A stretch of DNA of 64,000 nt from Gemmatimonadota bacterium (lineage in GTDB: Bacteria; Gemmatimonadota; Gemmatimonadetes; Palauibacterales; KS3-K002), in contig JBDHKG010000020.1 of NCBI GenBank assembly GCA_039586495.1, positions 1,181 through 65,180 of the forward strand, written 5' to 3'. Within the stretch, counting starts at the first letter, position 1. Each line of letters starts with the position of its first letter. The notes beneath the pieces were generated by a model. It ran no database searches, was not told the DNA's origin, and was given only the letters and a program-made list of their open reading frames with translations. Shown piece after piece: positions 12,083-54,279 of the stretch. Position numbers and translations under genes: made by a program.

Positions 12083-12094
12083 CCGGATGGTGGC

Positions 12095-13834: not shown

Positions 13835-13881
13835 AGGCACAGGCTCGACTGGACACGCTCATTCTTCTGGAGGGACCGCTG

Positions 13882-14406
13882 ATGAAGCGCGCACCGATCG
13901 TAGCGACCATCGCACTCCTGCTCGCTGCAACCGCCGGGCAGGCTCAGGAAGCGAAGCCGGGCCCCGAGCACGAGAAGCTCGGGTTCTGGATCGGCGAGTG
14001 GCAGATCGAGGCGGAGGCGAAACCCAACCCCCTGTTCCCCGAAGGGCCGTACTACGGCGCGATGACCGCCGAGTGGTTCGAGGGTGGGTTCCACGTTCTC
14101 GTTCGCACTGATTGGACGGGAGCTCTGGGGCCTTACGCCGAGCTCAACATCCTGGGCTACGATCCGCTCGCCGAGGAATACTTCAACTATGCCGTCGATG
14201 GTCTGGGTAGCAACATGGTGTTCACCGGTCCGGCGGAAGACAACGTCTTCACCTACCTGGCCGAGTTCGAGGCCGAGGGGACGCACGTCGCTTTCAGGTG
14301 GACGGTCACCGACGTATCGCCCGGGGTGATCACCTGGACGAGTGAGCTGTCCATCGATGGCGGCCCGTGGATCTTGGCCGGCGAGGCGAAGGCTACGCGG
14401 CAGTGA
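13882..14406 (+). CDS. Secreted hypothetical protein (DUF1579-like), inserted within the paralog array.
   Basis: The internal ATG at 13882 gives MKRAPIVATIALLLAATAGQAQE, a signal peptide, with GGAGGG 7 nt upstream. The overlapping minus-strand ORF 13645..14424 is antisense junk. Confidence 0.6.
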   Translation: MKRAPIVATIALLLAATAGQAQEAKPGPEHEKLGFWIGEWQIEAEAKPNPLFPEGPYYGAMTAEWFEGGFHVLVRTDWTGALGPYAELNILGYDPLAEEYFNYAVDGLGSNMVFTGPAEDNVFTYLAEFEAEGTHVAFRWTVTDVSPGVITWTSELSIDGGPWILAGEAKATRQ

Positions 14407-14433
14407 GGCCGGGTATCCGACCATGATGACAGC

Positions 14434-16428: not shown

Positions 16429-16434
16429 CCGGCT

Positions 16435-18240: not shown

Positions 18241-18247
18241 GAGAGCG

Positions 18248-22351: not shown

Positions 22352-22401
22352 TTTGGATCTTCCCAACCACAGTTCCTGATTCTCAACGCTGGAGGGACAC
22401 C

Positions 22402-25400: not shown

Positions 25401-25614
25401 TGAGAGGGTGTCCAGCTCGCTCGAGTCGTCCTGGGACGCGCCGACGCAGGCCCAGGAGATCAACCTGCGGCAGGCGGAGGCGATGTTACAGGACGCTCTG
25501 GACGAGTTCAACCAAGTCTTCGCCGAGGACGTGGCCGAGTTCATCGACAAGGTGGAGGCAGTGGGGATCAGCTTCGTAAAGTCTACGGAGCCGCTAGCGA
25601 TGCCGCAGCGCTAG
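22402..25614 (+). CDS. Secreted BNR/Asp-box repeat protein (sortilin/VPS10-like, GH74-like beta-propellers), copy 1.
   Basis: 1070 aa. Signal peptide MLRRLISGGAALLLSAALAAPLHAQ. Repeated S-x-D-x-G-x-(T/S)-W motifs ('SMDAGRNWT', 'TEDGGRTWQ', 'TVDGGRNWT', 'SEDGGYTWR', 'TRDGGATWT'). Confidence 0.85.
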   Translation: MLRRLISGGAALLLSAALAAPLHAQVDPELLAGMRARSIGPAGMSGRIGSVDAVVSNPNIIYVGTATGGVWKSVNGGVSFEPIFDDQPVHAIGAVRVFQASPDIVWVGTGEGNPRNSVSGTGYGVFKSMDAGRNWTHLGLENTERVHRIALHPSNPDIAYVGAMGSMWKPNPERGVFKTEDGGRTWQKILYVDENTGVGDMEMDPTNPNKLIVAMWEYRRWPWFFKSGGPGSGLFLTVDGGRNWTKLTPEDGLPEGDVGRIGLAIAPSNPNIVYALTEASENALYKSEDGGYTWRKIDSEGTIGNRPFYYFDLRVDPQDPNRVYSLYSRVGLSTDGGRSFQVLVRGGVHSDHHAMWINPNDPSHIIDGNDGGVYISRDHGQTWRFVTDLPLAQYYHINVDMETPYNVLGGLQDNGSWRGPSSVWEDGGIRNHHWQRVGGGDGFATLALPSDPKVGYSMSQGGNLRRWNVYSGEFKDIRPAHPDGVELRFNWNAAIAVDPFDPNIVYYGSQFVHKSPDMGETWEVISPDLTTNNPERQKQQESGGLTYDVTGAENFTTIMTIAPSPVAQGVIWVGTDDGRVHVTRDGGATWTSVERNVRGVPANTWVPHIEPSKFDAATAYVVFDNHRRGDFTPYVYVTRDYGRRWSSLVSDDIWGYALVVEQDPVKEDLLFLGTEFGLYSSLNGGQSWMKWTHGFPTASAMALIVHPREHDLVIGTHGRSVYIIDDIRPLRTISAETMAQPIYLFEIPDAIQYQENQSAGEGSPGHGAFRGENRPYGALITFSLNIEGLPRASAQQPQPGGSGQGGPQRFGQARRGPQVTVEISDSDGELIRTLRAPARLGVNRIAWNLRRDEFRRPRAAEEQEEFFRFGRGGPDVLPGSYGVKIKYGDHEATGSVNVLADPRYDITLAEREEKLAAIMYAGALQEVVADAVERIRDTRSEIDDVLERLRRAEEESGDDELLRAGRSLNTALTELEKEFWSPPGSRGQRTPRTDNVLRLIERVSSSLESSWDAPTQAQEINLRQAEAMLQDALDEFNQVFAEDVAEFIDKVEAVGISFVKSTEPLAMPQR

Positions 25615-25640
25615 CTACCACGATCATCCGCACGCGAGGA

Positions 25641-25676: not shown

Positions 25677-25752
25677 CCGCCCCGGCCGCTGACCCCTAAG
25701 TTGGAACCTGCCCAACCACCGAAACCCTGATCCAAAACTCGGGAGGCTGACC

Positions 25753-28700
25753 ATGCTTCGCCGCCTGATCTCTTCAGGTGCGGCCGCTCTGCTGATCGTT
25801 GCCCTGGCCGCGCCCCTTCACGCTCAGGTCGATCCCGAGCTGCTCGCCGGTATGCAGGCCCGCTCGATTGGGCCCGCCGGCATGAGTGGCCGGATCGCCG
25901 ACGTCGAGGCGGTCGTCTCGAACCCGGACATCGTTTACGTGGGCGCTGCCACCGGCGGCGTGTGGAAGTCGCTGAACGGTGGGCTGACCTTCGAGCCGAT
26001 CTTCGACGATCAGCCGGTCCACGCGATCGGCGACATCGCGATCTTCCAGGCCAGCCCCGACATCGTCTGGGTCGGTACGGGCGAAGGGAACCCCAGGAAC
26101 AGCGTGTCGGTGGGCAACGGCGTCTACAGGTCCCTCGACGGTGGCCGCAGCTGGACCCACCTGGGGCTAGACGAAACGGAGCGCATCCACCGCATCGCGC
26201 TCCACCCGTCTAACCCGGATGTCGCCTACGTGGGGGCGATCGGTAAGGAGTGGGGTGAGAGCCCGGAGCGCGGCCTGTTCAAGACGGAGGACGGCGGCGC
26301 AACCTGGCGGAAGATCCTCTACGTCAACGAGACCACCGGCGTCGGCGACATGGAGATGGACCCGACGAACCCCAACAAGCTGATCGTCGCCATGTGGGAC
26401 TATCGCCGCTGGCCCTGGTTCTTCCGCTCCGGCGGCCCGGGCTCGGGCCTGTACCTGACGGTGGACGGCGGCCGCAACTGGAAGAAGCTGACGCCGGAGG
26501 ACGGGCTGCCCGAGGGTGACCTCGGCCGCATCGGGCTGGCGATCGCGCCGTCGAACCCGAACATCGTCTACGCGCTGATCGAGGCGAAGGAGAACGCGCT
26601 CTACAAGTCGGAGGACGGCGGTTACACCTGGAGGAGGACGGGCGCGCGAGACAACATCGGGAGCCGGCCGTTCTACTACTTCGACCTGCGAGTCGATCCT
26701 CAGGATCCCAACCGGGTCTACAGCCTCTGGTCGCTGGTCAGCGTCTCGAACGACGGCGGCGCGAGCTTCGAGCTCTTGATGACGTGGGATGCGGCGCATC
26801 CCGATCACCATGCCATGTGGATCAGTCCGAACGATCCGACGCTGATCTACGAGGGCAATGACGGCGGCGTCTATGTCAGCCGCGATCGCGGAGAGACGTG
26901 GCGCTTCGTGAGCAACCTGCCGTTCGCCCAGTTCTACCACATCAACGTAACCATGGAGACCCCCTACAACGTGCTTGGCGGTCTGCAGGACAACGGGTCC
27001 TGGCGCGGCCCGAGCGTTGTCTGGGAGAACGGCGGGATCCGCAACCATCACTGGGAGGAGGTAGGCTTCGGCGACGGATTCGCGACGCTGGCCGATCCCA
27101 GTGACCCGATGATCGGCTACGCGATGAGTCAGGAAGGCTTCCTGACGCGTTGGGACCTGCGCACCGGCGAGCGCAAGGACATCCGGCCGGCGCATCCCGA
27201 GGGGATCGAGCTGCGCTTCAACTGGAACGCGGCCATCGCCATCGACCCCTTCGAGCCCAGCACCGTCTACTACGGCAGCAACTGGAACGCGGCCATCGCC
27301 ATCGACCCCTTCGAGCCCAGCACCGTCTACTACGGCAGCCAGTTCGTGCACAAATCCACCGACCGGGGCGACACGTGGGAGATCATCAGCCCGGACCTCA
27401 CCACCAATAATCCCGAGTGGCAGAAGCAGGCGGAGAGCGGCGGCCTGACCCTGGATGTGACGGGCGCCGAGAACTTCACCACGATCATCACGATTGCACC
27501 CAGCCCGGTGGAGCAAGCTGTGATCTGGGTGGGTACGGATGACGGCCGAGTGCAGGTGACCCGCGACGGCGGCGCGACCTGGGAGAGCGTGGAGCGGAAC
27601 ATCCGTGGCGTGCCGGCGAACACGTGGGTGCCGCATATCGAGCCGTCGAAGTTCGATGCGGCGACGGCGTTCGTGGTGTTCGACAACCATCGACGTTCGG
27701 ACTGGACGCCCTATGTCTATGTGACCCACGACTACGGGCGCAGGTGGCGGAGCCTGGCGACGGATGATCTCTGGGGCTACGCGCTGGTGATCGAGCAGGA
27801 TCCGGTGAAGGCGGACCTGCTGTTCCTGGGCACGGAGTTCGGGCTGTACGTGAGCGTGGACGGCGGGAGGGAGTGGCTGAAATGGACGCATGGCGTTCCG
27901 ACCGCCTCGGCGATGGCGCTGATCGTGCACCCGCGGGAGCACGATCTGGTGATCGGGACGCACGGGCGCGCGGCGTACATCCTCGATGACATCCGGCCGT
28001 TACGGTCGCTCACGGCGGAGACACTGGCCCAGCCGATCCACCTGTTCGACATCGCCGACGCGCAGCAGTACATGGTGAAGCAGACCGGCGCCTCGCGCTT
28101 CCCCGGCCACGCTGAGTTCCGCGGCGCGAACCGGCCGTACGGGGCGCTGATCACGTACTCGCTCCACATCGAGGGGTTGCCGCACCCCGACGAGGAGGTC
28201 GAGAGGCAGCGGAAGGCGGCCCAGCGCGAGGCCGGGGCGCCCGAGGAGGAAGCCGCCGGGGAGACCGCGGCGGCCGAGCGCGAGGGCCCGCCCGACCGCG
28301 GTCCCCAGGTCACCATCGAGATCAGCGACGCCGAGGGCGAGGTGATTCGCAGCTTCAAGGGCCCGGCGAAACTGGGGGTCAACCGTGTCGCCTGGGACCT
28401 GCGCCGCGACAGCTTCAGGCGGCCGCGCGGCGACGAGGAGATGTCCTTCTTCGAGCGCGGCGGCCCGGAGGTGCTACCCGGCATCTTCGGTGTACGCATC
28501 AAGTACGGCGAGCACGAGGCGACGGGCCCGGTCACCGTGCTGCCCGATCCGCGTTACGACATCCTGGGCGCCGATCGGGAGGCGAAGTTCGCCGGGATCA
28601 TGCACGCCGGCGCGCTCCGGGAGGTGGCGGCCGAGGCGATCGACCGCATCCAGGACACCCGCGCCGACATCGATGTCGTACTCGACAAGGCCAAGCAGGG

Positions 28701-29085
28701 TGAGGAGGGCGCGGAGAAATCGGCGGCGCGCTCCGAGGAAGAAAGCGCGAACAACGAGTTGATTGAGGCGGCCCGCGAGTTGAAGAAGACGCTCAAGGGG
28801 GTGGAGGAGCGGCTCTGGGTTCCGCCCGGCACCAAAGGCATTGTCGCCGAGACCGCGGTCTACTCGCGCATCGGGTACGTCTTGCGCGCCCTGAGCTCCT
28901 CGTGGGATGCGCCGACGCCGGCGCAGCAGACCTACACGCGTCAGGCGGAGGTGCGGCTCGAAGAGGTCCTTGCCGAGTTCAACCGTGTGTTCGCCGAGGA
29001 CGTGGCCGAGTTCCGGAACAAGGTCGAGGCGGCAGGGATCGAGTTCCTCGGGCCACAGGAGCCTCTGCAGATGCCGGAGCGCTAG
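25753..29085 (+). CDS. Secreted BNR/Asp-box repeat protein, copy 2 (tandem paralog of 22402..25614).
   Basis: 1110 aa, collinear with copy 1 over most of its length. It has an extra Glu/Ala-rich insert at about 28190..28290 and a 20-aa internal duplication. Confidence 0.85.
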   Translation: MLRRLISSGAAALLIVALAAPLHAQVDPELLAGMQARSIGPAGMSGRIADVEAVVSNPDIVYVGAATGGVWKSLNGGLTFEPIFDDQPVHAIGDIAIFQASPDIVWVGTGEGNPRNSVSVGNGVYRSLDGGRSWTHLGLDETERIHRIALHPSNPDVAYVGAIGKEWGESPERGLFKTEDGGATWRKILYVNETTGVGDMEMDPTNPNKLIVAMWDYRRWPWFFRSGGPGSGLYLTVDGGRNWKKLTPEDGLPEGDLGRIGLAIAPSNPNIVYALIEAKENALYKSEDGGYTWRRTGARDNIGSRPFYYFDLRVDPQDPNRVYSLWSLVSVSNDGGASFELLMTWDAAHPDHHAMWISPNDPTLIYEGNDGGVYVSRDRGETWRFVSNLPFAQFYHINVTMETPYNVLGGLQDNGSWRGPSVVWENGGIRNHHWEEVGFGDGFATLADPSDPMIGYAMSQEGFLTRWDLRTGERKDIRPAHPEGIELRFNWNAAIAIDPFEPSTVYYGSNWNAAIAIDPFEPSTVYYGSQFVHKSTDRGDTWEIISPDLTTNNPEWQKQAESGGLTLDVTGAENFTTIITIAPSPVEQAVIWVGTDDGRVQVTRDGGATWESVERNIRGVPANTWVPHIEPSKFDAATAFVVFDNHRRSDWTPYVYVTHDYGRRWRSLATDDLWGYALVIEQDPVKADLLFLGTEFGLYVSVDGGREWLKWTHGVPTASAMALIVHPREHDLVIGTHGRAAYILDDIRPLRSLTAETLAQPIHLFDIADAQQYMVKQTGASRFPGHAEFRGANRPYGALITYSLHIEGLPHPDEEVERQRKAAQREAGAPEEEAAGETAAAEREGPPDRGPQVTIEISDAEGEVIRSFKGPAKLGVNRVAWDLRRDSFRRPRGDEEMSFFERGGPEVLPGIFGVRIKYGEHEATGPVTVLPDPRYDILGADREAKFAGIMHAGALREVAAEAIDRIQDTRADIDVVLDKAKQGEEGAEKSAARSEEESANNELIEAARELKKTLKGVEERLWVPPGTKGIVAETAVYSRIGYVLRALSSSWDAPTPAQQTYTRQAEVRLEEVLAEFNRVFAEDVAEFRNKVEAAGIEFLGPQEPLQMPER
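27219..27339 (+). repeat. Perfect 60-bp tandem duplication (2 units) inside BNR copy 2. It is in-frame and duplicates NWNAAIAIDPFEPSTVYYGS.
   Basis: Unit 27220..27279 is identical to 27280..27339. Copy 1 has this motif once (FNWNAAIAVDPFDPNIVYYGSQFVHKS). Confidence 0.9.
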
Positions 29086-29121
29086 CTGCAGGCCTGAATC
29101 AGACTGGTACTTAGCCAACGA

Positions 29122-45591: not shown

Positions 45592-45978
45592 ATGGAAGCT
45601 CCACGCGTGCTCATAGTCTCGCCGGACCAGTGGCCCCGGGCGCTGCTGCGGGCGGAGCTGCTGGAGGCCGGATACGATGCGATCGGGGCGCGCACGCTGT
45701 CCGCGTCGCTACGCTACCCCGCCACGCAGCCGGGCCGAGGGCCCGTGAGACTGATTATCGTGGATCAGTGTGTCGTGGAGCGTGAGGCGTCGGAGGTTCG
45801 TGCGCGGCTCGCAGCGAAGCACACCGGGAGTCGGTGGTTTCTTCTTGCACACTCGAGCGGTGTGCTTCCGGCGGGAGACTGGTATGCTGTGCTGCGGCGG
45901 CCGCTGAGCATCGGCCAGGTCGTGGAAGCCGTTAAGCGCGTTCTCCCGATCCCCTACGGTTCCAGCGAATCGGATTGA
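45592..45978 (+). CDS. Possible atypical or pseudo receiver (CheY-like) domain protein.
   Basis: Beta-alpha pattern 'RVLIVSPDQ...', 'VRLIIVDQC', '...FLLAHSSG'. The acidic pocket is incomplete (SPD instead of DD; no conserved Lys). Confidence 0.35.
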   Translation: MEAPRVLIVSPDQWPRALLRAELLEAGYDAIGARTLSASLRYPATQPGRGPVRLIIVDQCVVEREASEVRARLAAKHTGSRWFLLAHSSGVLPAGDWYAVLRRPLSIGQVVEAVKRVLPIPYGSSESD

Positions 45979-47525
45979 GCCGGCGCCGCCCTCGTATCCA
46001 GCGCCTCGGTCGCGGCTGGGGCGTCGGATGTCACCTCAGGGACCTCGCACTCCTGGTTCGCCAAGTAGTCGTACGCTTCCGTCACAGTCTCCCACGCTCT
46101 TGCCCGACCATAGTTCCAGGTTCGCCAAGAGGTCCCTGCCGGCGGCGCCCAACGTTTCAGGATCCGAGCGGCGACCATACAGCGATCGTGGGGGCTCAAT
46201 CCGGGAAGCGCCGACACTACAATCGGGACGGCGTCGGCGCTCAGCGACGTGGCGTACAGCGCGTCGAACTCCTGACCCGTCAGCGCTCGATCGGTGTTCG
46301 TCTTCGCGATCAGTGCGTCCGGGTTCATGATGTTGAGCATCCCAATCAAACAGAATCCCGCGAGCGTGGCACCGGTCACGAAGGGCTGTCTCCAGCCACG
46401 GAGGACGGTGATCGCGAACCAGATCAACACGACGCCGAGCCAGGTCATGAAAGCAGTCGTGTAGAGGCGAAGCTCGGTGAGCCCGTACGCGCCTACGTAC
46501 AGCTGCATGCGCGTTACGGCGGACGTCATGATGACGAAGAGCAGCAGGAGCTGTAGCGCCGCCAGGATTCGAAAGGCGCGCAGGCTCCGGCGATCGGCCT
46601 TCGCCAGCACCCAATCCGCCACGAGCAGCAACGGCAACACGAGCGCGGCGACGGCCACGAGCTCGAAGAACCCGCGGCGCGCGTACTCGGCGTACGTGAG
46701 ACCGACCGTCTGCTCGACCAGCGAAGCGTCACCGAACAGATAGCGGATCTGCACCACCACGAAGACGAGGAAGAGAAAATCGATCAGAGCCAAAGGCACC
46801 GCGATCTCGACGATACCGAGGCCGGGTCGCTCCGGCGCTGCGGCCTCCGTGAAACCGGGCTTGCTGAACCTGAGGATCAGCAGCAGGAAGCCGCACACGG
46901 TCCAGGCGAAGAAGGCTATGAGTGCCGCGTGCGATAGAAGGTTGGCGAGGTCGATGTTCAGGGCGCGCGTCACCAACTGATCGAACACGGCATCGGCTGC
47001 CATCAACAGGCCGCCGAACACGAAGAGCAGCGGAAAAGCGATGAGCAGACCGAGAGCGGCGGAGCGGGCGTGCCGCCAACGCGTGCGGCTCGCCGAACTG
47101 GTCCACGTGATGTCGCTGCGCGCCAACGCCGCGGCACCTACCGCTGCCGCGGTGCCGGAGTTCAGGAGTCCGCGTACGTAGTCCAAGAACCCCCAGCTGC
47201 TAACGGACGTGCCCTCGAGACTGCGGCTCCAGATTGAGATCGCCAGCATCATCGCGAAGGCATCGAAAAACTTCACGGCAGGAGAATCGCGCCAGGCGAA
47301 GCCCGCTGAGAAGATGAGCGCCAGGAATGCGGGCCAGAGCATACCCGGGTTCCATTCGATGCGGTGGCGTGTCGAAAGGATCAGCACGCACACCAACACC
47401 GCCGCCGTCCATACCGGCACGTTGATTCCCCAGGGCAACCCCCGGAGCAGCGCATCGCCCAACACGCCGAGCAGGATCCCGGCGGCCGCTACCTGGAGTG
47501 CGAGCTTAGACTTCGTATCCATCAT
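45954..47525 (-). CDS. Polytopic integral membrane protein (hypothetical; DUF4153/DUF4173-like).
   Basis: 523 aa with at least 12 predicted TM helices. No catalytic motifs recognised. Confidence 0.55.
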   Translation of the reverse strand: MMDTKSKLALQVAAAGILLGVLGDALLRGLPWGINVPVWTAAVLVCVLILSTRHRIEWNPGMLWPAFLALIFSAGFAWRDSPAVKFFDAFAMMLAISIWSRSLEGTSVSSWGFLDYVRGLLNSGTAAAVGAAALARSDITWTSSASRTRWRHARSAALGLLIAFPLLFVFGGLLMAADAVFDQLVTRALNIDLANLLSHAALIAFFAWTVCGFLLLILRFSKPGFTEAAAPERPGLGIVEIAVPLALIDFLFLVFVVVQIRYLFGDASLVEQTVGLTYAEYARRGFFELVAVAALVLPLLLVADWVLAKADRRSLRAFRILAALQLLLLFVIMTSAVTRMQLYVGAYGLTELRLYTTAFMTWLGVVLIWFAITVLRGWRQPFVTGATLAGFCLIGMLNIMNPDALIAKTNTDRALTGQEFDALYATSLSADAVPIVVSALPGLSPHDRCMVAARILKRWAPPAGTSWRTWNYGRARAWETVTEAYDYLANQECEVPEVTSDAPAATEALDTRAAPAQSDSLEP

Positions 47526-47534
47526 TCGCTTCCT

Positions 47535-47903
47535 CTATTCACCGCGCATCACGCGGATGAGATCCTCCATGTCATCCAGATAGCACTCGAGGGCTCGGCG
47601 GCCCGTCTCGGTCAGTCGGTACTCCGTCTTGGGCACCCTTCCTTCGAACGACTTCGTGCAGGCGACGTAACCCGCCTCCTCGAGTTTCCGTGCGTGCACG
47701 CTGAGGTTGCCGTCCGTGATTTCGAGGAGACCTTTCAGATCGCTGAAGGTCAGCGACTCGTTCACGGCGAGTGCGCTCATGATGCCGAGTCGGACCCGCT
47801 GATGGATGAGGCGATCGAGCTCCGGCGTGGCGCTGCTTGAGGCTCGCCCGGGCGGACGACCCGCTGGACTTCCCACGTCTGACGAACCCCGTCGCCTGTT
47901 CAT
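47535..47903 (-). CDS. Winged-helix (HTH_34-type) transcriptional regulator.
   Basis: 'LDRLIHQRVRLGIMSALAVNESLTFSDLKGLLEITDGNLSVHARKLEEAGYVACTKSFEGRVPKTEYRLTETGRRALECYL'. The start is uncertain: the ORF extends to 47975 and would then overlap the upstream gene. Candidate starts are M25 (47903) and M16 (47930). Confidence 0.65.
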   Translation of the reverse strand: MNRRRGSSDVGSPAGRPPGRASSSATPELDRLIHQRVRLGIMSALAVNESLTFSDLKGLLEITDGNLSVHARKLEEAGYVACTKSFEGRVPKTEYRLTETGRRALECYLDDMEDLIRVMRGE

Positions 47904-47919
47904 CGTCGAGGAGCCGCCG

Positions 47920-48531
47920 CTAGCCACCATACCTGCGGGCGATGATGGCGCCGAAGACGACATTGATCCCGCCAAAACCAGCCGCCATGAACGCGTTGCC
48001 CCATGCCGCTGGGGCGAGAAAAGCCCCGAGGCCCACCAGCATGAAGCAGACCCCCATGATCGGGACGGCTCTCACGGAGAACGCGCCGCCCGTCGTGACG
48101 CCCGTGCCATATAACAACAGCCAGGTGCCCGGCATGGCGTCGAAGAGGCGCGCCGAATAGAGGACCGCCGTGAGCACAGCGCCAGCGACCAGGGGAGGGC
48201 AGAGGCCGAAGACGAAGCGTGCGCCGGCGCCGCGCAGCAGCGGCGCCTTGACGGCTCTGGCTTTGAGAGCCATTGCGACGGCCCCGATGGCGATCGCCAG
48301 GGCAGCCTCGGCGAGCCAGGTGAGGAGCCAGGCGCTGGGGGTCATCTGGCGCGCGGCCAGTGCGGCGGCGGCGAACGCGGTCAGGCCGATGGCCAGGGTG
48401 CCCCACCCGGGGACGGCGGTGAAGGAGCTGGCGCGCGCCATGGTGTCGCGAATGAAGCGGAGGTCATCGAGGGCGCGGGACCGGGTGGGGGAGTGGCCGT
48501 TGCACTGGGGTTGAGAGCGTTCGTTGTTCAT
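47920..48531 (-). CDS. Integral membrane protein (hypothetical), probable partner of the wHTH regulator.
   Basis: 203 aa with five or six TM helices. No recognisable motifs. Confidence 0.5.
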
Positions 48532-48751: not shown

Positions 48752-51700
48752 ATGCCCTCATACGCCGAGCTCCACTGTCACTCCGCCTTCTCCCTCCTCG
48801 ACGGCGCCTCCACGCCGGAAGTCCTGGTTCGACGGGCGGTGGAGCTCGGCATCCGCGCCCTGGCGCTCACCGACCACGACGACCTGGGCGGCGCGGTGCG
48901 CTTCAGCCGGGCGGCCCGGGAGGCGGGATTGGAGGCGATCGTGGGGGCTGAGCTCACGATCGTGCCGCCGGAGGACGCTGCCGGTCCTCCCAACCATCTC
49001 ACGCTGCTGGCGCGGACCGCCGAGGGCTACGCGAACCTCTCGGAGCTGGTGACGCGGGGACGGTCGGGCACGGCGGGAACCCTCGCTTCATGTCGCGCGA
49101 CACGGGTTGGGATGTGTGACGGGCCACCGCGCTCCAAATGTCCGCTCGCGGCTCCCGCCGTGCCCTCCCTGTCGCGGAAAGGAGCCCGCCCCGAATCAAC
49201 TTCGAGAGTCCCCATCACGAACAGCTGGGCGCCGGACAGGGGGCGCCCACGGGTGACCTGGGAGGACCTGGCGGAGCTGGGATCCGGGCTCTTCGCCCTC
49301 ACGGGCTGTCCGCAAGGCGAGCTGGCCCGGCGGGTGCGGGCGGGCGATGGGAAGGGGACGCGGGAGCTGCTCGATTTCCTGCGGAGCGCCTTCCACGGCT
49401 ACTTGGCCGTGGAAGTCTGGGATCATGCGTTGCCGGAGGAACGGGCGCTGGCGGATCGCTTGCTGGAGCTGGCGGACCGCCAGGGGCTGCCGGCGGTGGC
49501 GACCAACGATGTGCACTATGCGCTGCCGTCGGGCCGAATCGTCCACGATCTGCTCACCTGCCTGCGCCATCAGGTGACGCTGGATGAGGCGGGCAGGCGG
49601 CTGCGCCCCAACGGCGAGTGGCATCTGAAGCCGTCCTCGGTGGTGTGGCGGCGCTGGCGCCAGCGGCCCGACGTGGTGGAGAACACCCACGGCGTCGCCG
49701 CCGAGTGTTCTTTCCGCTTGGCGGACCTCTCGCCGGCGATGCCGGGGTTCCAGGTGCCGCCCGGCGTGACGACGCAGGAGTATCTGGAGCGGTTGGTCTG
49801 GCGGGGTGCGCTGGAGCGCTACGGTGGGGCAGGGCAGGTGCGGAACGGCGATCCGATCTGCATTTCCGCTCCTGTGGAGGAGGGAGGAGTCGGGGAGATC
49901 GTCTCGCTCCACCGCTCGCAGCCTCCTGCGCCGCCCCCGGATCTCCAGCGCGGCCGCACGGTTGAGCGCGAGCCGCCGACCACCCCACCGGCCCTTGCAA
50001 AGGAAGTACTGCGGCCTGGCCGAGGCACGTCCAGGCACTTGAGCGAGGCGGGTCAAATCTGGAACAGTGACTCGAGTGGCGTGGTCGTTCCGACTAGGGA
50101 TGGGGCGCCGGATGGGTCGTCGAGCGTAACTCGCGAGCGGTGGAGCGAGATGATCCCACCGGCGCCCCGTCTAAACGGCGGCTCGGGTCTCAGGCAGCGA
50201 GTGCGTCGCCAGATCCGCCACGAACTCGAGGTGATCAAGCGCTTGGACCTGGCCGGGTACTTCCTCACCGTCTGGGACATCGTCCGCTTCGCCCGGCGCC
50301 AAGGGATCCTGTTGCAGGGACGCGGCTCGGCCGCCAACTCCTGCGTCTGCTACTGCCTGGGGATCACGGCGGTGGATCCCATCAAGTTCGAGCTGTTGTT
50401 CGAGCGCTTCCTCTCGGAGGAGCGGGGCGGCGCGCCCGACATCGATCTCGACATCGAGCACGAGCAGCGCGAGGAGGTGCTCCAGTACGTCTACCGCAAG
50501 TACGGCCGCGAGCGGGCGGCGATGGTCTGCGAGACGATCACCTATCGCGGCCGCTCCGCGGTGCGCGATGCCGCCCGCGTGCTCGGCTTTTCCACCGATG
50601 TGGCCGATCGACTGGCGGCGGAAGTGGAGCGCTGCGAAGCGGTAGAGGCGGCCGATGTGCTGGAGAACGGCGGACTGGCCGCCTGCGGGCTCGATCCGCG
50701 GGACCGTCGTGTCGCGGCGCTGGTCCACGTGGTGCGCGGGCTCGACCAACTACCGCGTCACCGCTCCATCCATGTAGGCGGCTTCGTCCTCACCGCGAGC
50801 CCACTCTCCCTGGTCGTCCCCATCGAGCCGGCGGCGATGCCGGAGCGCACCGTCATCCAGTGGGACAAGGACGACCTCGACTTCGTGGGCCTCATCAAGA
50901 TCGATCTGTTGGGCCTGGGGATGCTTACCTGCCTGGCGAAGGCGATCCGCTACATCCGCGAGACGCGCGGTGTGGCCATCGACCTGGCCCAGCTGCCGGC
51001 GGGCGACCCCGAGGTCTACCGGATGATCCAGCAGGCGGACACGGTAGGCGTCTTCCAGATCGAGAGCCGGGCGCAGATGAACTCGCTGCCGCGCTTGAAA
51101 CCCGGGGATTTCTACGATCTGGTCGTCCAGGTGGCGCTCATCCGGCCGGGCCCCATCCAGGGCGAGATGGTGCACCCCTATGTGCGGCGGCGGCGCGGCG
51201 AGGAGCCGGTGACGTATCTGCATCCGGATCTTGAGCCGATCCTCAAGCGGACGCTGGGCGTGCCGCTCTTCCAGGAGCAGGGGATGAAGGTCGCGGTGGC
51301 GATGGCGAACTTCACGCCGGGCCAGGCGGACGCATTGCGCCGGGCGATGGGGTTCAAGCGCTCGAGGGAGGCGATGGCGCTGATCGAGCCGGCGCTACGG
51401 GCGGGGATGACGGCGCGCGGGATCACCACAGACGTGCAGGATCAGATCGTCAAGCAGCTCACCGCCTTCGCCAACTACGGTTTTCCGGAGAGCCATGCGG
51501 CGTCATTCGCGCTCCTGGTCTACGCCTCGGCGTATCTCAAGCGCTACTACGCGCCCGAGTTCTACTGCGCGCTGCTCAACGCGCAACCGATGGGGTTCTA
51601 CGCGCCGGGGACGCTCGTTCATGATGCACGTCGCCACGGGGTCGAGATGCGGCCCGTCGATCTCGCGTACTCGAGCTGGGACTGCACGCTCGAACCCGGC

Positions 51701-52699
51701 ATCGAGGAAGACGGGGTGCGGCAGGGTCGTCTCGCTTCATGTCGCGCGGCACCGTGCCGATGTCGAAGGACCGGCGGGGGCGCTCCAAATGTCCGCTCAA
51801 CGACACCTGCCGCACCCCTGGACTCCGGGGACACGGCAGGAGATCCTCGAGCGGCCTTGTCACCACGAAAGGGAGGGCACGGCACCGACCCACGAGCGGA
51901 CATTTGGAGCGCCCCGGCCCGTCTCGTACACGTGCCCGAGTCGCGCGACATGAAGCGAGGGGTCGGTGCCGTGCCCGACCGGCCGGCTCTGCGGATCGGA
52001 CTGCGCTATGTGCGCGGGCTGGGCTCGAAGGCGGAGGAGAAGCTCAAGGCGGCATGGGAGGCCGGGGGACGTTTCCGGTCGGTGGAGGATGTGGTGCGGC
52101 GGTCGGGCCTCGGCCTCCCCTCCCTCAAGACGCTGGCGGAGGCCGGCGCCTTCCGGACGCTCTGGGGGCCGGGCCGGCGCTCCGCCCTCTGGGAGATGCT
52201 GGCGAAGCTCGCCCAGCGGCCACTGGCGCCGGTGGATTCGGCGCCTCATCCGTACCCGCACCCGAAACTGAAGGAGATGACCCGGGTCGAGTTCATCGCC
52301 GCCGATTACCTGACCACCGGACTCTGCACCCACGGGCATCCCATGGAGCACCTGCGGGCAACACTGCGCGCTCACGGTGTGGTCTCGGCCGAGGAGCTCA
52401 AGCGGGTCCGCAGCGGTCAGCGAGTGAAGGTGGCTGGCGTGGTGATCTGCCGGCAGCGGCCGGGCACCGCCAAAGGCGTGTGCTTCATCACTCTGGAGGA
52501 TGAGACCGGGTTCTCCAACTTCGTGGTCTACGCCGACCTGTTTCAGCGCTACCGCCGCACCATCGTCCGCTCACCGGTGCTCTTGATCGAGGGGATCGCC
52601 CAGCACGAGCAGGACGTGATCAACGTGCAGGCACGGCGGATCACCGCGATCGAGCCGACCGCGGGCGCCGACGTCATCGAGAGCCACGACTTTCACTGA
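48752..52699 (+). CDS. dnaE2: Error-prone DNA polymerase III alpha-subunit homolog (DnaE2/ImuC type), lengthened by three in-frame palindromic-element insertions.
   Basis: Starts MPSYAELHCHSAFSLLDGAS, the PHP domain. The polymerase core includes 'GFVLTASPL...IDLLGLGMLT...GVFQIESRAQM', and the OB-fold tail is 'VKVAGVVICRQRPGTAKGVCFITLEDETG'. The ORF-track start at 48524 is probably too long. Confidence 0.85.
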   Translation: MPSYAELHCHSAFSLLDGASTPEVLVRRAVELGIRALALTDHDDLGGAVRFSRAAREAGLEAIVGAELTIVPPEDAAGPPNHLTLLARTAEGYANLSELVTRGRSGTAGTLASCRATRVGMCDGPPRSKCPLAAPAVPSLSRKGARPESTSRVPITNSWAPDRGRPRVTWEDLAELGSGLFALTGCPQGELARRVRAGDGKGTRELLDFLRSAFHGYLAVEVWDHALPEERALADRLLELADRQGLPAVATNDVHYALPSGRIVHDLLTCLRHQVTLDEAGRRLRPNGEWHLKPSSVVWRRWRQRPDVVENTHGVAAECSFRLADLSPAMPGFQVPPGVTTQEYLERLVWRGALERYGGAGQVRNGDPICISAPVEEGGVGEIVSLHRSQPPAPPPDLQRGRTVEREPPTTPPALAKEVLRPGRGTSRHLSEAGQIWNSDSSGVVVPTRDGAPDGSSSVTRERWSEMIPPAPRLNGGSGLRQRVRRQIRHELEVIKRLDLAGYFLTVWDIVRFARRQGILLQGRGSAANSCVCYCLGITAVDPIKFELLFERFLSEERGGAPDIDLDIEHEQREEVLQYVYRKYGRERAAMVCETITYRGRSAVRDAARVLGFSTDVADRLAAEVERCEAVEAADVLENGGLAACGLDPRDRRVAALVHVVRGLDQLPRHRSIHVGGFVLTASPLSLVVPIEPAAMPERTVIQWDKDDLDFVGLIKIDLLGLGMLTCLAKAIRYIRETRGVAIDLAQLPAGDPEVYRMIQQADTVGVFQIESRAQMNSLPRLKPGDFYDLVVQVALIRPGPIQGEMVHPYVRRRRGEEPVTYLHPDLEPILKRTLGVPLFQEQGMKVAVAMANFTPGQADALRRAMGFKRSREAMALIEPALRAGMTARGITTDVQDQIVKQLTAFANYGFPESHAASFALLVYASAYLKRYYAPEFYCALLNAQPMGFYAPGTLVHDARRHGVEMRPVDLAYSSWDCTLEPGIEEDGVRQGRLASCRAAPCRCRRTGGGAPNVRSTTPAAPLDSGDTAGDPRAALSPRKGGHGTDPRADIWSAPARLVHVPESRDMKRGVGAVPDRPALRIGLRYVRGLGSKAEEKLKAAWEAGGRFRSVEDVVRRSGLGLPSLKTLAEAGAFRTLWGPGRRSALWEMLAKLAQRPLAPVDSAPHPYPHPKLKEMTRVEFIAADYLTTGLCTHGHPMEHLRATLRAHGVVSAEELKRVRSGQRVKVAGVVICRQRPGTAKGVCFITLEDETGFSNFVVYADLFQRYRRTIVRSPVLLIEGIAQHEQDVINVQARRITAIEPTAGADVIESHDFH
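49082..49180 (-). repeat. Truncated copy of palindromic MITE-like element family 1, inverted relative to the 51731 copy, inside dnaE2 and in-frame.
   Basis: The 18-bp terminus ctcgcttcatgtcgcgcg (49082..49099) is identical to 51731..51748. The inner box gcgctccaaatgtccgctc (49129..49147) is identical to the inner repeat of the full copy. ccgtgccctccc (49158..49169) is the reverse complement of gggagggcacgg in the full copy. The second half is missing. Confidence 0.7.
49897..50153 (+). mobile_element. Palindromic MITE-like element family 2 (~257 bp) inside dnaE2, in-frame.
   Basis: The terminal inverted repeats atcgtctcgctccaccgctcgc (49897..49918) and gcgagcggtggagcgagatgat (50132..50153) match at 21 of 22 positions. 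The element encodes a low-complexity ~90-aa Pro/Gly/Ser-rich insert ('...SLHRSQPPAPPPDLQRGRTVEREPPTTPPALAKE...') absent from typical DnaE2. Confidence 0.6.
51731..51959 (+). mobile_element. Full-length palindromic MITE-like element family 1 (229 bp, nested inverted repeats) inside dnaE2, in-frame.
   Basis: The outer TIRs are ctcgcttcatgtcgcgcg (51731..51748) and cgcgcgacatgaagcgag (51942..51959), an 18/18 match. The inner inverted repeats are ggggcgctccaaatgtccgctc (51778..51799) and gagcggacatttggagcgcccc (51894..51915), a 22/22 match. The central part has a further cctgccg...cggcagg dyad. The element encodes '...LASCRAAPCRCRRTGGGAPNVRSTTPAAPLDSGDTAGDPRAALSPRKGGHGTDPRADIWSAPARLVHVPESRDMKRG...' between the conserved DnaE2 segments 'SSWDCTLEPG' and 'PALRIGLRYVRGLG'. 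Confidence 0.75.
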
Positions 52700-52882
52700 C
52701 GCGAGCCTCTAGTGATTCGCTTTTGAGGACGACAGGAGCTGTGCTCTGCCTCCAAACGGTCAAAGGCTAACGGGGCTCTCAAGAGGTTGGCAGCGAAAGC
52801 CATCGCGAAGCATATTGTAGGGTCAACGCGGTTTAAATCCAACTGATTCTTCCATTCGAGTCGTTCGAGCCCACGTGCCGCT

Positions 52883-53437
52883 ATGACCAATGGCCTGACC
52901 AAAACTGCCTTGTTGGGGTCCCTGCTCGGCATCATTGGCGTACCGGGCACCGCTCTCGGTACGCAGCTCCCGGGCGGCGCGGATTCCGTCAAGGTTCGGG
53001 CGCTGGCGACGCCCGCCAACCCTCAAGCGGGGGATCAGGTGTCCGTTGCGGTCGCCCTGGAGCACGCCGCGGGGTTCCATTCCTGGCCGCATGAACCGGT
53101 CGTTCCGCCGGAGCTCCGGGGGGTGATGCCCATCGCCACGACGATCGAGGTGTTGTCGCTCCCGGAAGGGGCCGTCGTCGAGGAGATCCAGTGGCCAGCG
53201 CCCGTCCCGGTGATCGTGCGCTACACCCGGGGACCGGTGCTTCTGCTCGCCTATACTGACACGGCCGTCGCGCAGCTGCGCCTCAGGCTGGAGTCGGACC
53301 AGCCAGCCGAGGGAACGAGCGTCGCGCTCAGAGTGCGCTATCAGGCCTGCGACGAACGGGTATGCTATCCACCGAAGACGGTGGGCCTTGTAGTGCCTCT
53401 GTGGCACGGCCCGGCCCGCGACGATAGCCGGAGCTAA
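52883..53437 (+). CDS. Periplasmic DsbD N-terminal (alpha) domain-like protein, standalone.
   Basis: Signal peptide. The C-terminal motif 'YQACDERVCYPPKT' matches the DsbD-alpha active-site pattern (QGCADAGFCYPP). Confidence 0.65.
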   Translation: MTNGLTKTALLGSLLGIIGVPGTALGTQLPGGADSVKVRALATPANPQAGDQVSVAVALEHAAGFHSWPHEPVVPPELRGVMPIATTIEVLSLPEGAVVEEIQWPAPVPVIVRYTRGPVLLLAYTDTAVAQLRLRLESDQPAEGTSVALRVRYQACDERVCYPPKTVGLVVPLWHGPARDDSRS

Positions 53438-53658
53438 CCGGCGGCCAGGGCCGGCGACGCGCCCACCGAGGTCGACGAGGCGGCGTATTCAGCTGGCGAT
53501 GGAGTGCGGGCCGCGAGCCCACGTCCAGCCAAGAGCAGAAGCGCTAGAAGGGCGAGAAACGGTGAGCGGACAGCGCTGTGGGCTCGGGCCGTGTTGAGGG
53601 CCGGTCGCGCAGGCCGGCCCTCAAAGGTGAAGATGGATGCGGGTCGTTCTAGCCGAGC

Positions 53659-54279
53659 TTAGCAGGGCCCGTCGGTACCCGTCCCCGCGCCGTCGATCAT
53701 GCACCAGACCGCGTTGTTCTGGGCGGTGGTCCCGAAGGGCACGTCGAACTCACCGTCGTCCACGGTGATAGTGTCCGACCCGGCCCCACCTTGGTCGAGC
53801 GCGTTGAACTGGAAGCTGCCGCGCAGCCGACCTGCGCCGACCTCCGCGATCGTGACGCTGCCCGACACGATCTCGAAGTAGTAGTCGTAGTCGGTGAAGT
53901 CGTCGGTGCTCACCCCGAAGAAGATCCTGCCGTGGCAGTCCGCATTCGGCTCGCAAGGTGTGAATTCCCCGGTCTGCAGTGAGGCGAGCTGAAGGACGAA
54001 CAGGTCGCCACGCGGGTCCTCGGTCGTGCGGAAGCTGGCGATGACCACACCGTCCAGGGAATCGGGCTCCGCCATGATCGCCCAGCTACCGAATTCCGGC
54101 CGGCCAGCGGTATCGACGGCCGGCGTGCCGGTGGCCTCATAGGAGCCGGAGGTGACGCCGCTGAAGCTGAAGTTCAGGTCGCTCGGTGTCTCGATTCCGG
54201 TGGAGTCCTCATCACACGCGACGAGCAACGCCGCGAGGGCGAAGAGCCCGACGACCGCGAGAGAAGATAGTGCCTTCAT
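53659..54279 (-). CDS. Lipoprotein (hypothetical).
   Basis: MKALSSLAVVGLFALAALLVAC lipobox. Beta-rich, with conserved Cys pairs. Confidence 0.5.
   Translation of the reverse strand: MKALSSLAVVGLFALAALLVACDEDSTGIETPSDLNFSFSGVTSGSYEATGTPAVDTAGRPEFGSWAIMAEPDSLDGVVIASFRTTEDPRGDLFVLQLASLQTGEFTPCEPNADCHGRIFFGVSTDDFTDYDYYFEIVSGSVTIAEVGAGRLRGSFQFNALDQGGAGSDTITVDDGEFDVPFGTTAQNNAVWCMIDGAGTGTDGPC

What the first reader, a model, noticed from the sequence alone, without database searches (positions are those of the whole stretch)
49082..49180. Truncated, inverted second copy of the same element family about 2.6 kb upstream in dnaE2, also in-frame
The 18-bp terminus and the 19-bp inner box are identical to those of the 51731 element but in the opposite orientation, and the second half is missing.

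The copy adds about 50 residues ('SGTAGTLASCRATRVGMCDGPPRSKCPLAAPAVPSLSRKG...') between the PHP-domain segments 'LSELVTRGR' and 'RPRVTWEDLAELG'. Two independent insertions of one repeat family into one gene, both keeping the frame, suggest either selection to maintain the frame or a hotspot.
Basis: seen in the sequence. Interest (0 to 1): 0.7.

Follow-up and report, generated by a model that had tools for sequence, protein, structure and literature searches.

The report
Hairpin repeat family lodged in dnaE2
The flagged stretch is a complete copy, not a broken one, of a roughly 115-base hairpin repeat that is scattered between genes in one group of Gemmatimonadota bacteria and, within genes, was found only in frame in the error-prone DNA polymerase gene dnaE2.

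Summary
The repeated words are real and not chance. The 18-mer and the 19-mer each occur three times in 64 kb, all inside dnaE2 (48752-52699).

The basic unit is a stem-loop of about 115 nt. It has an outer stem that varies in sequence but stays complementary, then Box1 (CTCGCTYCATGTCGCGCG), a variable inner hairpin, Box2 (GCGCTCCAAATGTCCGCTC), and the other stem arm.

Window 49060-49183 is a full unit (113 bits, all 127 model positions). The "51731 element" is two independent units lying tail-to-tail.

A pattern scan found the family on about 105 Gemmatimonadota contigs. There, 113 near-full units lie between genes in either orientation and none lies inside a gene. Twelve further loci are dnaE2, which carries 2-5 units per gene, always in frame, at three linker sites.

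The dnaE2 core is under purifying selection (dN/dS about 0.14). The inserts are near neutral (0.6-0.9).

Stem mismatches are A·C far more often than G·T (68 against 12). This suggests that one specific strand folds as a single strand.

No transposase was found and there is no Rfam match. REP-type repeats inside DnaE2 and other repair genes were described in 2013, so this is a new variant of a known phenomenon.

The parts
49060..49183 (+). Unit A: a complete monomer of the repeat family. This is the flagged feature.
   Evidence: Model R1 gives 113.2 bits, E=5e-24, over model positions 1-127 of 127. nhmmer matches 49062-49180.
49066..49081 (+). Unit A, 5' arm of the outer stem (GGGCACGGCGGGAACC).
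   Evidence: Pairs with 49150-49165 at 15 of 16 positions (sequence; fold). P0003 and P0004 retain this arm after losing the rest of the unit.
49082..49099 (+). Unit A, Box1 (CTCGCTTCATGTCGCGCG).
   Evidence: The box is invariant or nearly invariant across 117 units.
49100..49128 (+). Unit A, variable inner hairpin.
   Evidence: Variable columns in alignment A3.
49129..49147 (+). Unit A, Box2 (GCGCTCCAAATGTCCGCTC).
49150..49165 (+). Unit A, 3' arm of the outer stem (GGCTCCCGCCGTGCCC).
   Evidence: Complementary to 49066-49081.
49166..49177 (+). Unit A, tail (TCCCTGTCGCGG). It contains the right-hand CGCGG motif.
   Evidence: The tail consensus GCCCTCCCTnnCGCGG is seen in alignment A3. CGCGG is enriched on both flanks of units.
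49051..49057 (+). Left-flank GACGCGG, part of the native LVTR codons. It is a possible insertion target and forms a direct repeat with GTCGCGG at 49171-49177.
   Evidence: Sequence. Flank statistics. The target role is an inference.
49083..49178 (+). The 96-nt segment that is absent from the close orthologues P0003 and P0004 (an in-frame deletion).
   Evidence: DNA alignment of five dnaE2 genes.
49881..50156 (+). Insert C: a 276-nt gain specific to this window, made of a degenerate inverted pair of related units.
   Evidence: Absent from L095, P0002, P0003 and P0004. Inverted arms lie at 49886-49919 and 50133-50166 (repeat I7). R1 gives weak hits at 49880-49953(+) (E=0.45) and 50085-50173(-) (E=0.014).
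51708..51835 (+). Unit B-left: a complete unit with stem arms at 51713-51730 and 51800-51818.
   Evidence: R1 gives 91.1 bits over positions 1-127 of 127. Fold z-score is -3.6.
51857..51982 (-). Unit B-right: a complete unit on the minus strand with stem arms at 51960-51976 and 51875-51891.
   Evidence: R1 gives 119.7 bits. Fold z-score is -4.3. In L095 the core is inverted between the same stem arms.
48752..52699 (+). dnaE2 (error-prone Pol III alpha). It is 1315 aa here, against about 1040-1060 aa in orthologues without inserts.
   Evidence: Pfam domains PHP, DNA_pol3_alpha, finger, HHH_6 and OB. Homologues are named error-prone DNA polymerase. Core dN/dS is 0.13-0.15.

Best explanation
Window 49060-49183 is one complete copy of a Gemmatimonadota-specific family of non-autonomous, hairpin-forming dispersed repeats. 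The family resembles REP, REPIN and RPE elements.

**Unit anatomy.** Each unit is about 105-125 nt. It has an outer stem of 16-20 bp whose sequence differs between sub-lineages but stays complementary. The stem encloses two conserved unpaired boxes. These boxes are imperfect direct repeats of each other (CGCTYC-ATGTCSGC) and flank a variable inner hairpin.

**What is shown.**
- The whole hairpin, stem included, is what gets copied.
- Copies normally sit between genes in either orientation.
- Inside genes they were found only in dnaE2, at three linker or loop sites: within the PHP domain, between PHP and palm, and between fingers and HhH.
- At those sites the units form clusters that turn over by nested insertion, deletion, core inversion and arm swapping.
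- dnaE2 is a working gene, so only stop-free changes in multiples of three survive. The inserts are translated as near-neutral extra loops.

**What is inferred.**
- The element is probably handled as a folded single strand of DNA, specifically the strand complementary to Box1>Box2. An unidentified enzyme acting in trans would read the two boxes displayed in the internal loop.
- Insertion seems to favour CGCGG-type sites and existing copies. That would explain why anciently colonised sites in dnaE2 keep being re-used.
- In-frame constraint may also slow the loss of copies there.
For: **Family and structure**
About 105 are Gemmatimonadota MAG contigs, with many per MAG.
- In an alignment of 117 units the boxes are conserved and the stems vary.
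- With my structure, 82.9% of stem cells are paired, against 44-59% when the 3' partner is slid. There are 349 cells with changes on both sides, against 56-179 in the slid controls, and 0 of 500 shuffles reach the observed value.

**Completeness of unit A.** The model matches all 127 positions at 113 bits.

**Amplification.** In one MAG, 30 units give 46 pairs that are at least 90% identical, at different loci with unrelated flanks.

**Genomic context**
- At non-dnaE2 loci, 113 near-full units include none inside a gene. In tandem-gene contexts 29 share the genes' orientation and 22 oppose it.
- Twelve loci are dnaE2. All 29 units found inside an ORF are in dnaE2, split 16 to 16 by orientation.
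- In this window only dnaE2 carries units.

**Turnover in dnaE2**
- Five orthologues differ by a 96-nt deletion, a 276-nt gain, a nested unit and a core inversion. All gene lengths are multiples of 3.
- More distant orthologues carry different sub-families, in different frames and orientations, at the same three sites.

**Selection**
- dN/dS is 0.13-0.15 for the core and 0.57-0.89 for the units.
- Stems are as intact inside dnaE2 as between genes.

**Single-strand inference**
- A·C/C·A stem mismatches number 68 against 12 G·T/T·G, and they are spread over many stem positions.
- There is no orientation bias relative to transcription.

**Flanks.** CGCGG lies within 16 nt on the left in 45% of units (controls 4-6%) and within 12 nt on the right in 51% (controls 4-8%).

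**Precedent.** Intragenic REPs concentrated in DnaE2 and other repair genes were reported in PMC3733652.
Against: - No transposase was found near the units, so mobility in trans is inferred, not shown.
- No clean empty-versus-filled pair was found to define the element ends or a target duplication. The P0003/P0004 state is a deletion.
- The enrichment in dnaE2 is inflated by shared ancestry. The 12 dnaE2 loci are orthologues, so a few ancient insertions plus local turnover could give the same counts.
- Gene calls at the loci came from my own GC3-based ORF rule, not from a gene finder.
- Tolerance alone does not explain why other genes with long linkers carry no units.
- The A·C over G·T asymmetry could in principle reflect RNA folding of the complementary strand rather than ssDNA.
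Confidence: 0.72

Rival explanations
1. One reading: a roughly 229-bp transposable element with 18-bp terminal inverted repeats at 51731-51959, and a truncated, inverted half-copy at 49082-49180.
For: The 18-mer occurs in inverted orientation at both ends of 51731-51959. As single-stranded DNA the whole 51700-51990 region folds as one long hairpin (z = -6.0). One sub-family (T3) is a genuine MITE with terminal inverted repeats flanked by CTAG.
Against: Each half of the 51731 element is a self-contained hairpin with its own, different outer stem that extends outside the 18-mers. Most genomic copies are single units with no inverted partner. The flagged copy matches the full-length model. Conservation stops at the hairpin foot, and sub-families T1 and T2 have no conserved terminal repeats.
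Confidence: 0.05
2. The units are cis-acting regulatory structures, in RNA or DNA, that the host keeps in dnaE2. They would hold down or time the expression of a mutagenic polymerase, for example as ribosome or RNA polymerase roadblocks, RNase targets, or binding sites for a protein that recognises the two boxes.
For: The hairpins are very stable (-59 to -75 kcal/mol). Stems inside dnaE2 are as intact as those between genes. Units recur at the same three sites in diverged orthologues. The boxes are conserved. The 2013 authors also doubted that insertions in repair genes are fortuitous.
Against: Units sit in dnaE2 in both orientations equally, 16 to 16. Their number, type and position differ even between orthologues with 90-95% identical protein, and some are being deleted. 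Orthologues without inserts exist (P0019, P0036, P0045). Intergenic copies show no orientation or position rule relative to genes. Nothing links the boxes to a known operator.
Confidence: 0.12
3. The inserts are kept for what they encode: extra peptide loops that change DnaE2 activity or its partners, as has been proposed for RPE-decorated Rickettsia proteins.
For: The inserts are always in frame and free of stop codons. They fall at domain boundaries where a new loop could contact partners.
Against: The same DNA unit is read in different frames and on both strands in different orthologues. This gives unrelated peptides: LASCRA, SRFMSR, SLHVA and SRDMKR. dN/dS of the units is 0.57-0.89 against 0.13-0.15 for the core. 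Five of the six frames through the boxes are open in any case, as read from the box sequences.
Confidence: 0.04
4. The dnaE2 association is only a historical accident. One or a few ancient insertions happened in a tolerant, dispensable gene and are now inherited by all descendants, with no targeting.
For: All dnaE2 loci are orthologues, so the counts are not independent. "Empty" sites still carry remnants of older units. That is consistent with slower loss under in-frame constraint.
Against: Different sub-families, orientations and frames occupy the same sites in different lineages. A 276-nt gain is specific to this window's lineage. A type-2 unit is nested in L095. The same gene is hit by unrelated REP families in other phyla (PMC3733652).
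Confidence: 0.25

Closest known systems
Intragenic REPs in replication and repair genes, DnaE2 included (Di Nocera, De Gregorio and Rocco 2013, BMC Genomics 14:522; PMC3733652)
   Same: Palindromic repeats that are otherwise intergenic are found in frame inside DnaE2. In many species a DNA-repair gene is the only coding sequence that carries them. Single units, dimers and groups all occur. The inserts lie in likely linkers.
   Different: Those REPs are 20-40 bp stem-loops tagged by GTAG or CGTC. The present unit is about 115 nt, has no conserved tag, and keeps its unpaired boxes constant while the stem varies. The phylum (Gemmatimonadota) is not mentioned in that paper (0 occurrences).
Rickettsia palindromic elements (RPE; Ogata et al. 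2000, as summarised in PMC10969869)
   Same: Palindromic repeats of about 100-150 bp are inserted in frame into protein-coding genes that stay functional, adding extra surface peptide.
   Different: RPEs hit many unrelated genes (44 insertions in R. conorii) and each family encodes a conserved peptide. Here only dnaE2 is hit, and units are read in several frames on both strands.
REPIN / RAYT systems (Bertels and Rainey 2011; PMC3116915)
   Same: Non-autonomous hairpin-forming repeats are mostly intergenic. They form within-genome populations of near-identical copies, occur as inverted pairs and clusters, and are presumably moved in trans as single-stranded hairpins.
   Different: In REPINs the conserved parts are the paired REP arms and the spacer varies. 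Here the arms vary and the unpaired boxes are conserved. No RAYT was found near the units.
IS200/IS605-type ends and their miniature derivatives (my own knowledge of the family)
   Same: Both show strand-specific folded structure, no conserved terminal inverted repeats, and a short conserved motif abutting both ends (CGCGG). The wobble asymmetry points to one active strand.
   Different: No Y1 transposase gene was detected. The hairpin is one large structure spanning the whole element rather than two small subterminal hairpins. Cleavage sites are unknown.
Classical bacterial MITEs with terminal inverted repeats (review PMC10969869)
   Same: They share small size, dispersal and a lack of coding capacity. 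Sub-family T3 has conserved terminal repeats flanked by CTAG.
   Different: The sub-families present in this window (T1, T2) have no conserved terminal repeats and no evident variable target duplication.

Membership tests
Intragenic REP-type repeats in DNA repair genes (phenomenon described in PMC3733652) | A dispersed palindromic repeat family that is otherwise intergenic. | tested here: met
   At non-dnaE2 loci, 113 near-full units are all outside genes.
Intragenic REP-type repeats in DNA repair genes (phenomenon described in PMC3733652) | In-frame copies inside DnaE2 or other repair genes, often the only coding sequence tagged. | tested here: met
   All 29 in-ORF units are in dnaE2. The ORFs are intact in 13 genes.
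GTAG- or CGTC-tagged REP superfamilies | A short (20-40 bp) stem-loop with a conserved GTAG or CGTC tetranucleotide at one end. | tested here: not met
   The unit is 105-125 nt. The positions next to the stem vary (GTGG, GAGG, GCGG, GTAG, GACG) and there is no invariant tag.
REPIN / RAYT | Two conserved REP sequences in inverted orientation around a variable spacer. | tested here: not met
   The conservation pattern is the reverse: arms vary and covary, while the internal boxes are invariant.
REPIN / RAYT | A single-copy RAYT (Y1 transposase) gene flanked by the repeats. | tested here: inconclusive
   None was seen among recurrent ORF families near the units. tblastn over about 0.8 Mb also found none, but the query sequences were recalled from memory. 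Whole genomes were not searched.
Rickettsia palindromic elements | In-frame insertion into many unrelated genes. | tested here: not met
   Only dnaE2 is hit.
Rickettsia palindromic elements | Each family encodes a conserved peptide in one frame. | tested here: not met
   Units are read in several frames and both orientations. dN/dS of the units is 0.57-0.89.
MITE with terminal inverted repeats | Conserved terminal inverted repeats recognised by a DDE transposase, plus a target-site duplication. | tested here: not met
   For T1 and T2 units conservation ends at the hairpin foot and the arms differ between copies. Only sub-family T3 has such repeats, with CTAG flanks.
Any Rfam RNA family | A match to a curated covariance model. 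| tested here: not met
   No gathering-level hit in the window. No relevant hit up to E=10 across 48900-52200. Twenty further loci gave only a tRNA.
IS200/IS605-like single-strand elements | Strand-specific folded DNA ends. | tested here: inconclusive
   A·C mismatches number 68 against 12 G·T, which fits one active strand. RNA folding of that strand is not excluded.
IS200/IS605-like single-strand elements | Insertion next to a fixed short target, without duplication. | tested here: inconclusive
   CGCGG is enriched on both flanks, but no empty site was available.
IS200/IS605-like single-strand elements | A cognate HUH (Y1) transposase. | tested here: inconclusive
   Not found at the loci held. 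Genomes were not searched.
DnaE2 (error-prone Pol III alpha) as the host gene | The domain set PHP, Pol3 alpha, fingers, HhH and OB, with closest homologues named error-prone polymerase. | tested here: met

The most novel reading that the evidence does not exclude
The units could be a previously undescribed class of single-strand-structured mobile element. Its recognition determinants would be two unpaired direct-repeat boxes displayed in a hairpin of free sequence. It would have a mechanistic tie to the error-prone polymerase gene: either dnaE2 DNA is a preferred substrate when it becomes single-stranded or transcribed under SOS conditions, or decorating DnaE2 alters mutagenesis or repair in a way that favours the element. 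This would give a concrete, testable system for the open question raised in 2013: why palindromic repeats, in several phyla, enter almost only replication and repair genes.
Probability: 0.12. Interest if true: 0.85.

Novelty: new variant of a known kind. Interest (0 to 1): 0.55.

Why it matters
In-frame palindromic repeats in genes are known from Rickettsia. A bias of intragenic REPs towards DNA repair genes, DnaE2 included, was noted in 2013 and never explained.

This window adds an independent case in another phylum, with a structurally different repeat. The case is unusually clean:
- There were 0 of 113 units inside other genes, against 2-5 units in every dnaE2 sampled.
- The three insertion sites are re-used across lineages.
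- Turnover is visible between orthologues with 90-95% identical protein.
- Stem mismatches show a strand asymmetry.

If the dnaE2 preference is mechanistic, it links a selfish hairpin element to the cell's mutagenic polymerase.

In practical terms, these inserts inflate DnaE2 length by up to about 270 residues. They can mislead annotation, domain calling and phylogenies. The family also breaks MAG assemblies, since many units sit at contig ends.

Tried and rejected
- **Rfam.** Searches at the gathering threshold, at E up to 10 over the dnaE2 region and over 20 other loci found nothing that overlaps a unit.
- **Viral contigs.** The pattern gave 0 hits, so there is no sign of phage carriage.
- **Associated transposase.** I clustered 713 ORFs from the loci and scanned representatives of the recurrent families against Pfam. 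They were BTAD-TPR, symporter-glucoamylase, peptidases, BNR/sortilin, UvrA and others, with no transposase.
- **First coding-context test.** It required coding signal within 300 nt on both sides and was too strict. I replaced it.
- **RNAalifold on the raw MAFFT alignment.** It recovered only part of the stem, so I derived the stem columns by dynamic programming before counting pairs.
- **Structure prediction of the N-terminal fragment.** I prepared an alignment but dropped the idea. MAFFT stretched insert C over downstream conserved columns, which would have misled the model. The alignment to the solved Taq Pol III alpha structure already places the inserts between aligned blocks.
- **Target-derived stems.** I considered that the variable stem arises by inverted duplication of the flank at insertion. 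I rejected this because the arms share a family consensus (GGTCGGGC...GCCCTCCC) and near-identical stems recur at unrelated loci.
- **Other readings.** A CRISPR-like arrangement, integron attC sites, ribozymes and intrinsic terminators were considered and set aside on sequence grounds. Rfam, which holds models of ribozyme families, also gave no hit.
- **Nearby mutasome genes.** imuA and imuB are not adjacent to dnaE2 here.
Full report
**1. The observation**

CTCGCTTCATGTCGCGCG occurs at 49082(+), 51731(+) and 51942(-). GCGCTCCAAATGTCCGCTC occurs at 49129(+), 51780(+) and 51894(-). Even with three mismatches allowed there are no other matches in the 64 kb. The chance expectations are 0.31 and 0.02 matches.

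The region lies in one long ORF whose real start is at 48752 (MPSYAELHCHS...). Pfam finds PHP, DNA_pol3_alpha, fingers, HHH_6 and OB domains. The nearest homologues are Gemmatimonadota proteins named error-prone DNA polymerase. The gene is therefore dnaE2, and the organism is a member of the Gemmatimonadota.

The protein is 1315 aa, against about 1040-1060 aa for the shortest orthologues. An alignment to the solved Thermus aquaticus Pol III alpha breaks at three places: query residues 104-164, 359-456 and 979-1080. These are the three inserts.

**2. The anatomy is different from what was proposed**

About 105 are contigs of Gemmatimonadota MAGs, often many per MAG. The rest are chance hits in other phyla that lack the remainder of Box1.

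Aligning 117 copies shows that the repeat is a self-contained stem-loop of about 105-125 nt, with these parts in order:
- a 5' arm of 16-20 nt;
- Box1, CTCGCTYCATGTCGCGCG;
- a variable hairpin of 29-35 nt;
- Box2, GCGCTCCAAAT(GTCC/TACG/TGCG)GCTC;
- a 3' arm complementary to the 5' arm;
- in the commonest sub-family, a tail GCCCTCCCTnnCGCGG.

The boxes are conserved and the arms are not, yet the arms stay complementary. With the stem columns I derived, 82.9% of cells are paired, against 44-59% when the 3' partner is slid by 1-3 columns. There are 349 cells with a change on both sides, against 56-179 in the slid controls. None of 500 shuffles reaches the observed values. Box1 and Box2 are imperfect direct repeats of each other.

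A covariance model built from this alignment (R1) was run over the whole window with filters off. It finds three strong full-length matches and nothing else of note in the other 60 kb:
- 51857-51982(-), 119.7 bits;
- 49060-49183(+), 113.2 bits;
- 51708-51835(+), 91.1 bits.

So the flagged stretch is a complete monomer. The "51731 element" is two independent units lying tail-to-tail, each with its own stem (GGGGTGCGGCAGGGTCGT and GGGCACGGCACCGACCC).

Two weak matches, 49880-49953(+) and 50085-50173(-), are the arms of a third insert, C (49881-50156). It is a degenerate inverted pair of related units.

**3. Where the family lives**

An nhmmer profile of the unit finds 183 matches in the loci plus the window, 150 of them near full length.

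I called genes with a GC3-based ORF rule of my own. By that rule, none of the 113 near-full units at non-dnaE2 loci lies inside a gene. They sit in tandem (51), convergent (14) and divergent (10) intergenic regions. In the tandem regions 29 share the orientation of the flanking genes and 22 oppose it. The median distance is 65 nt from the upstream stop and 140 nt to the next start.

tblastn with the window's DnaE2 shows that 12 of the pattern-derived loci are dnaE2. These genes carry 2-5 units each, and all 29 units found inside a coding ORF are in dnaE2. Inside dnaE2 the two orientations are equally common, 16 to 16.

For two complete chromosomes, bin113 and bin118, the only pattern hits returned were in dnaE2. 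A third, bin1194, gave five loci, one of them dnaE2.

**4. dnaE2 is alive and the inserts ride along**

I compared this window with four orthologues whose proteins are 89-94% identical over the aligned parts. The core of the gene has dN/dS of 0.13-0.15. The aligned unit segments have 0.57-0.89.

All five genes have lengths divisible by three. At DNA level the comparisons show the following:
- **Site 1.** P0003 and P0004 lack exactly 96 nt (window 49083-49178) but keep the 5' stem arm. They show an in-frame deletion of an older unit, not an empty site.
- **Site 2.** Insert C (276 nt) is present only in this window's lineage.
- **Site 3.**
  - The window, P0002 and P0003 have B-left plus B-right.
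  - L095 has B-left with an internal deletion, a nested unit of another sub-family, and B-right with its core inverted between unchanged arms.
  - P0004 has only the nested-type unit.
  - In P0002 and P0003 one arm of B-right has been swapped for that of another lineage.

More distant orthologues carry other sub-families at the same three sites, read in different frames. The peptide signatures include LASCRA, SRFMSR, SLHVA and SRDMKR for Box1, and APNVRS, RSKCPL, RSKLRS and RADIWSA for Box2. Some orthologues have no inserts at all.

Five of the six reading frames through the boxes are open, as read from the box sequences. Being free of stop codons is therefore cheap, and the frame is kept by selection on the gene. 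Stems of units in dnaE2 are as intact as those between genes (median 16 against 16.5 pairs, p=0.18).

**5. How the element probably works**

*Shown.* The whole hairpin is the unit of amplification. In one MAG, 30 units give 46 pairs that are at least 90% identical, at different loci with unrelated flanks. Units are often nested. A complete unit sits inside an outer one that stops after ...CATGTCGCG and resumes at TGTCCGCTCG.

CGCGG lies next to both ends far more often than in control windows: 45% against 4-6% on the left and 51% against 4-8% on the right. At unit A the left copy of this motif is the native LVTR codon string GACGCGG, and the right copy is GTCGCGG in the tail.

Within stems, A·C/C·A mismatches (68) greatly outnumber G·T/T·G (12), and they are spread over many stem positions. 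On the complementary strand these mismatches are wobble pairs. It is therefore the complement of the Box1>Box2 strand whose folded form has been preserved.

*Inferred.* There is no orientation bias relative to transcription, either between genes or within dnaE2. The folded form is therefore more likely single-stranded DNA than mRNA. It would be handled in trans by an enzyme that reads the two boxes in the internal loop, in the manner of REP/RAYT or IS200/IS605 systems.

No such enzyme was found near the units. Nothing matches Rfam, and there were no viral hits.

One sub-family (T3) is different. It is a classical MITE with terminal inverted repeats (CTAGTGTTCGGCCACAGTG...) that carries one unit inside it.

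**6. Why dnaE2?**

The data exclude chance. They argue against a role for the encoded peptide and against a strand-specific mRNA structure.

Two explanations remain that are not mutually exclusive:
- Ancient colonisation of three tolerant linkers was followed by self-targeted re-insertion and recombination, and loss was slowed because only in-frame deletions are allowed.
- There is a real mechanistic or selective link to this gene.

The counts are inflated by shared ancestry, because the dnaE2 loci are orthologues. Even so, lineage-specific gains and the variety of sub-families at the same sites show repeated events.

[quoted passage not shown] In many species such repair genes are the only coding sequences that carry REPs (PMC3733652).

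**7. Comparison and novelty**

The closest known phenomena are those intragenic REPs, the Rickettsia palindromic elements (in frame, but in many genes and with conserved peptides; PMC10969869), and REPINs (PMC3116915).

The present family fails the defining tests of each:
- it has no GTAG or CGTC tag;
- its conservation pattern is the reverse of a REPIN;
- it is confined to one gene;
- the sub-families seen in this window have no terminal repeats.

It is not in Rfam, and a full-text search found no description of such repeats in Gemmatimonadota.

I rate it a new variant of a known kind. As a single copy the flagged feature is ordinary. The family and its exclusive residence in dnaE2 are of moderate interest.

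Noticed in passing
window 49881-50156: A third in-frame insert in dnaE2 (276 nt, 92 codons) with 34-nt inverted arms at 49886-49919 and 50133-50166. It is absent from the four closest orthologues, so it is a recent gain. The family model hits its arms only weakly, which suggests a degenerate or sister family.
   Followed up: partly
L015 about 1648-1837; also L026, L037, L051, L056, L070, L097, L104, L107, L110: A sub-family (T3) in which one hairpin unit sits inside a roughly 195-bp MITE. The MITE has conserved terminal inverted repeats (CTAGTGTTCGGCCACAGTG...CACTGTGGCCGAACACTAG), and the flanks diverge right after CTAG. This suggests capture of the unit by a DDE-type MITE, or origin of the unit from one.
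   Followed up: partly
L006, L021, L024, L063, L069, L099, L111 (MAG M8-62_Bin_385): Composite "unit within unit" elements have themselves amplified. The outer unit is cut after ...CATGTCGCG and resumes at TGTCCGCTCG. A shared 3' extension (GGTAGGAGGAGCCCGCCCTCAC...CCTCCGAGAC) also resembles window 49178-49215.
   Followed up: partly
L002 7125-7231 and L073 4920-5030: In two genomes a unit lies about 20-25 nt past the end of the uvrA ORF. uvrA is another repair gene that REPs enter in other phyla, but here the unit is outside the ORF.
   Followed up: partly
window 27219-27338: A perfect 60-nt tandem duplication (two 100% identical adjacent copies) lies inside one of two paralogous genes about 3.4 kb apart (22375-25616 and 25726-29087, 74-83% identical). 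The genes carry Asp-box-like repeats (...SxDGGxTW).
   Followed up: no
window 11168-20229: Four to five paralogous genes share a conserved 5' segment of about 245 nt (repeat families D1, D8, D9, D11). A BTAD-TPR gene family was also the commonest neighbour of units at other loci (19 ORFs in 16 loci). I did not check whether the window's paralogues belong to it.
   Followed up: no
window 45954-48531 and 52823-54279: dnaE2 is not next to imuA or imuB here. Its neighbours are a DUF4153 protein (minus strand), an ORF with no Pfam match, and a DsbD_N-domain protein. P0002 and P0003 share the DsbD_N neighbour.
   Followed up: partly
proteins P0015, P0018, P0014, P0021 (alignment A2): Some orthologues carry extra inserts at further positions: before the PHP site, after GLDRAD, and before PKLKEM. 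dnaE2 therefore has more than three permissive sites in this clade.
   Followed up: no
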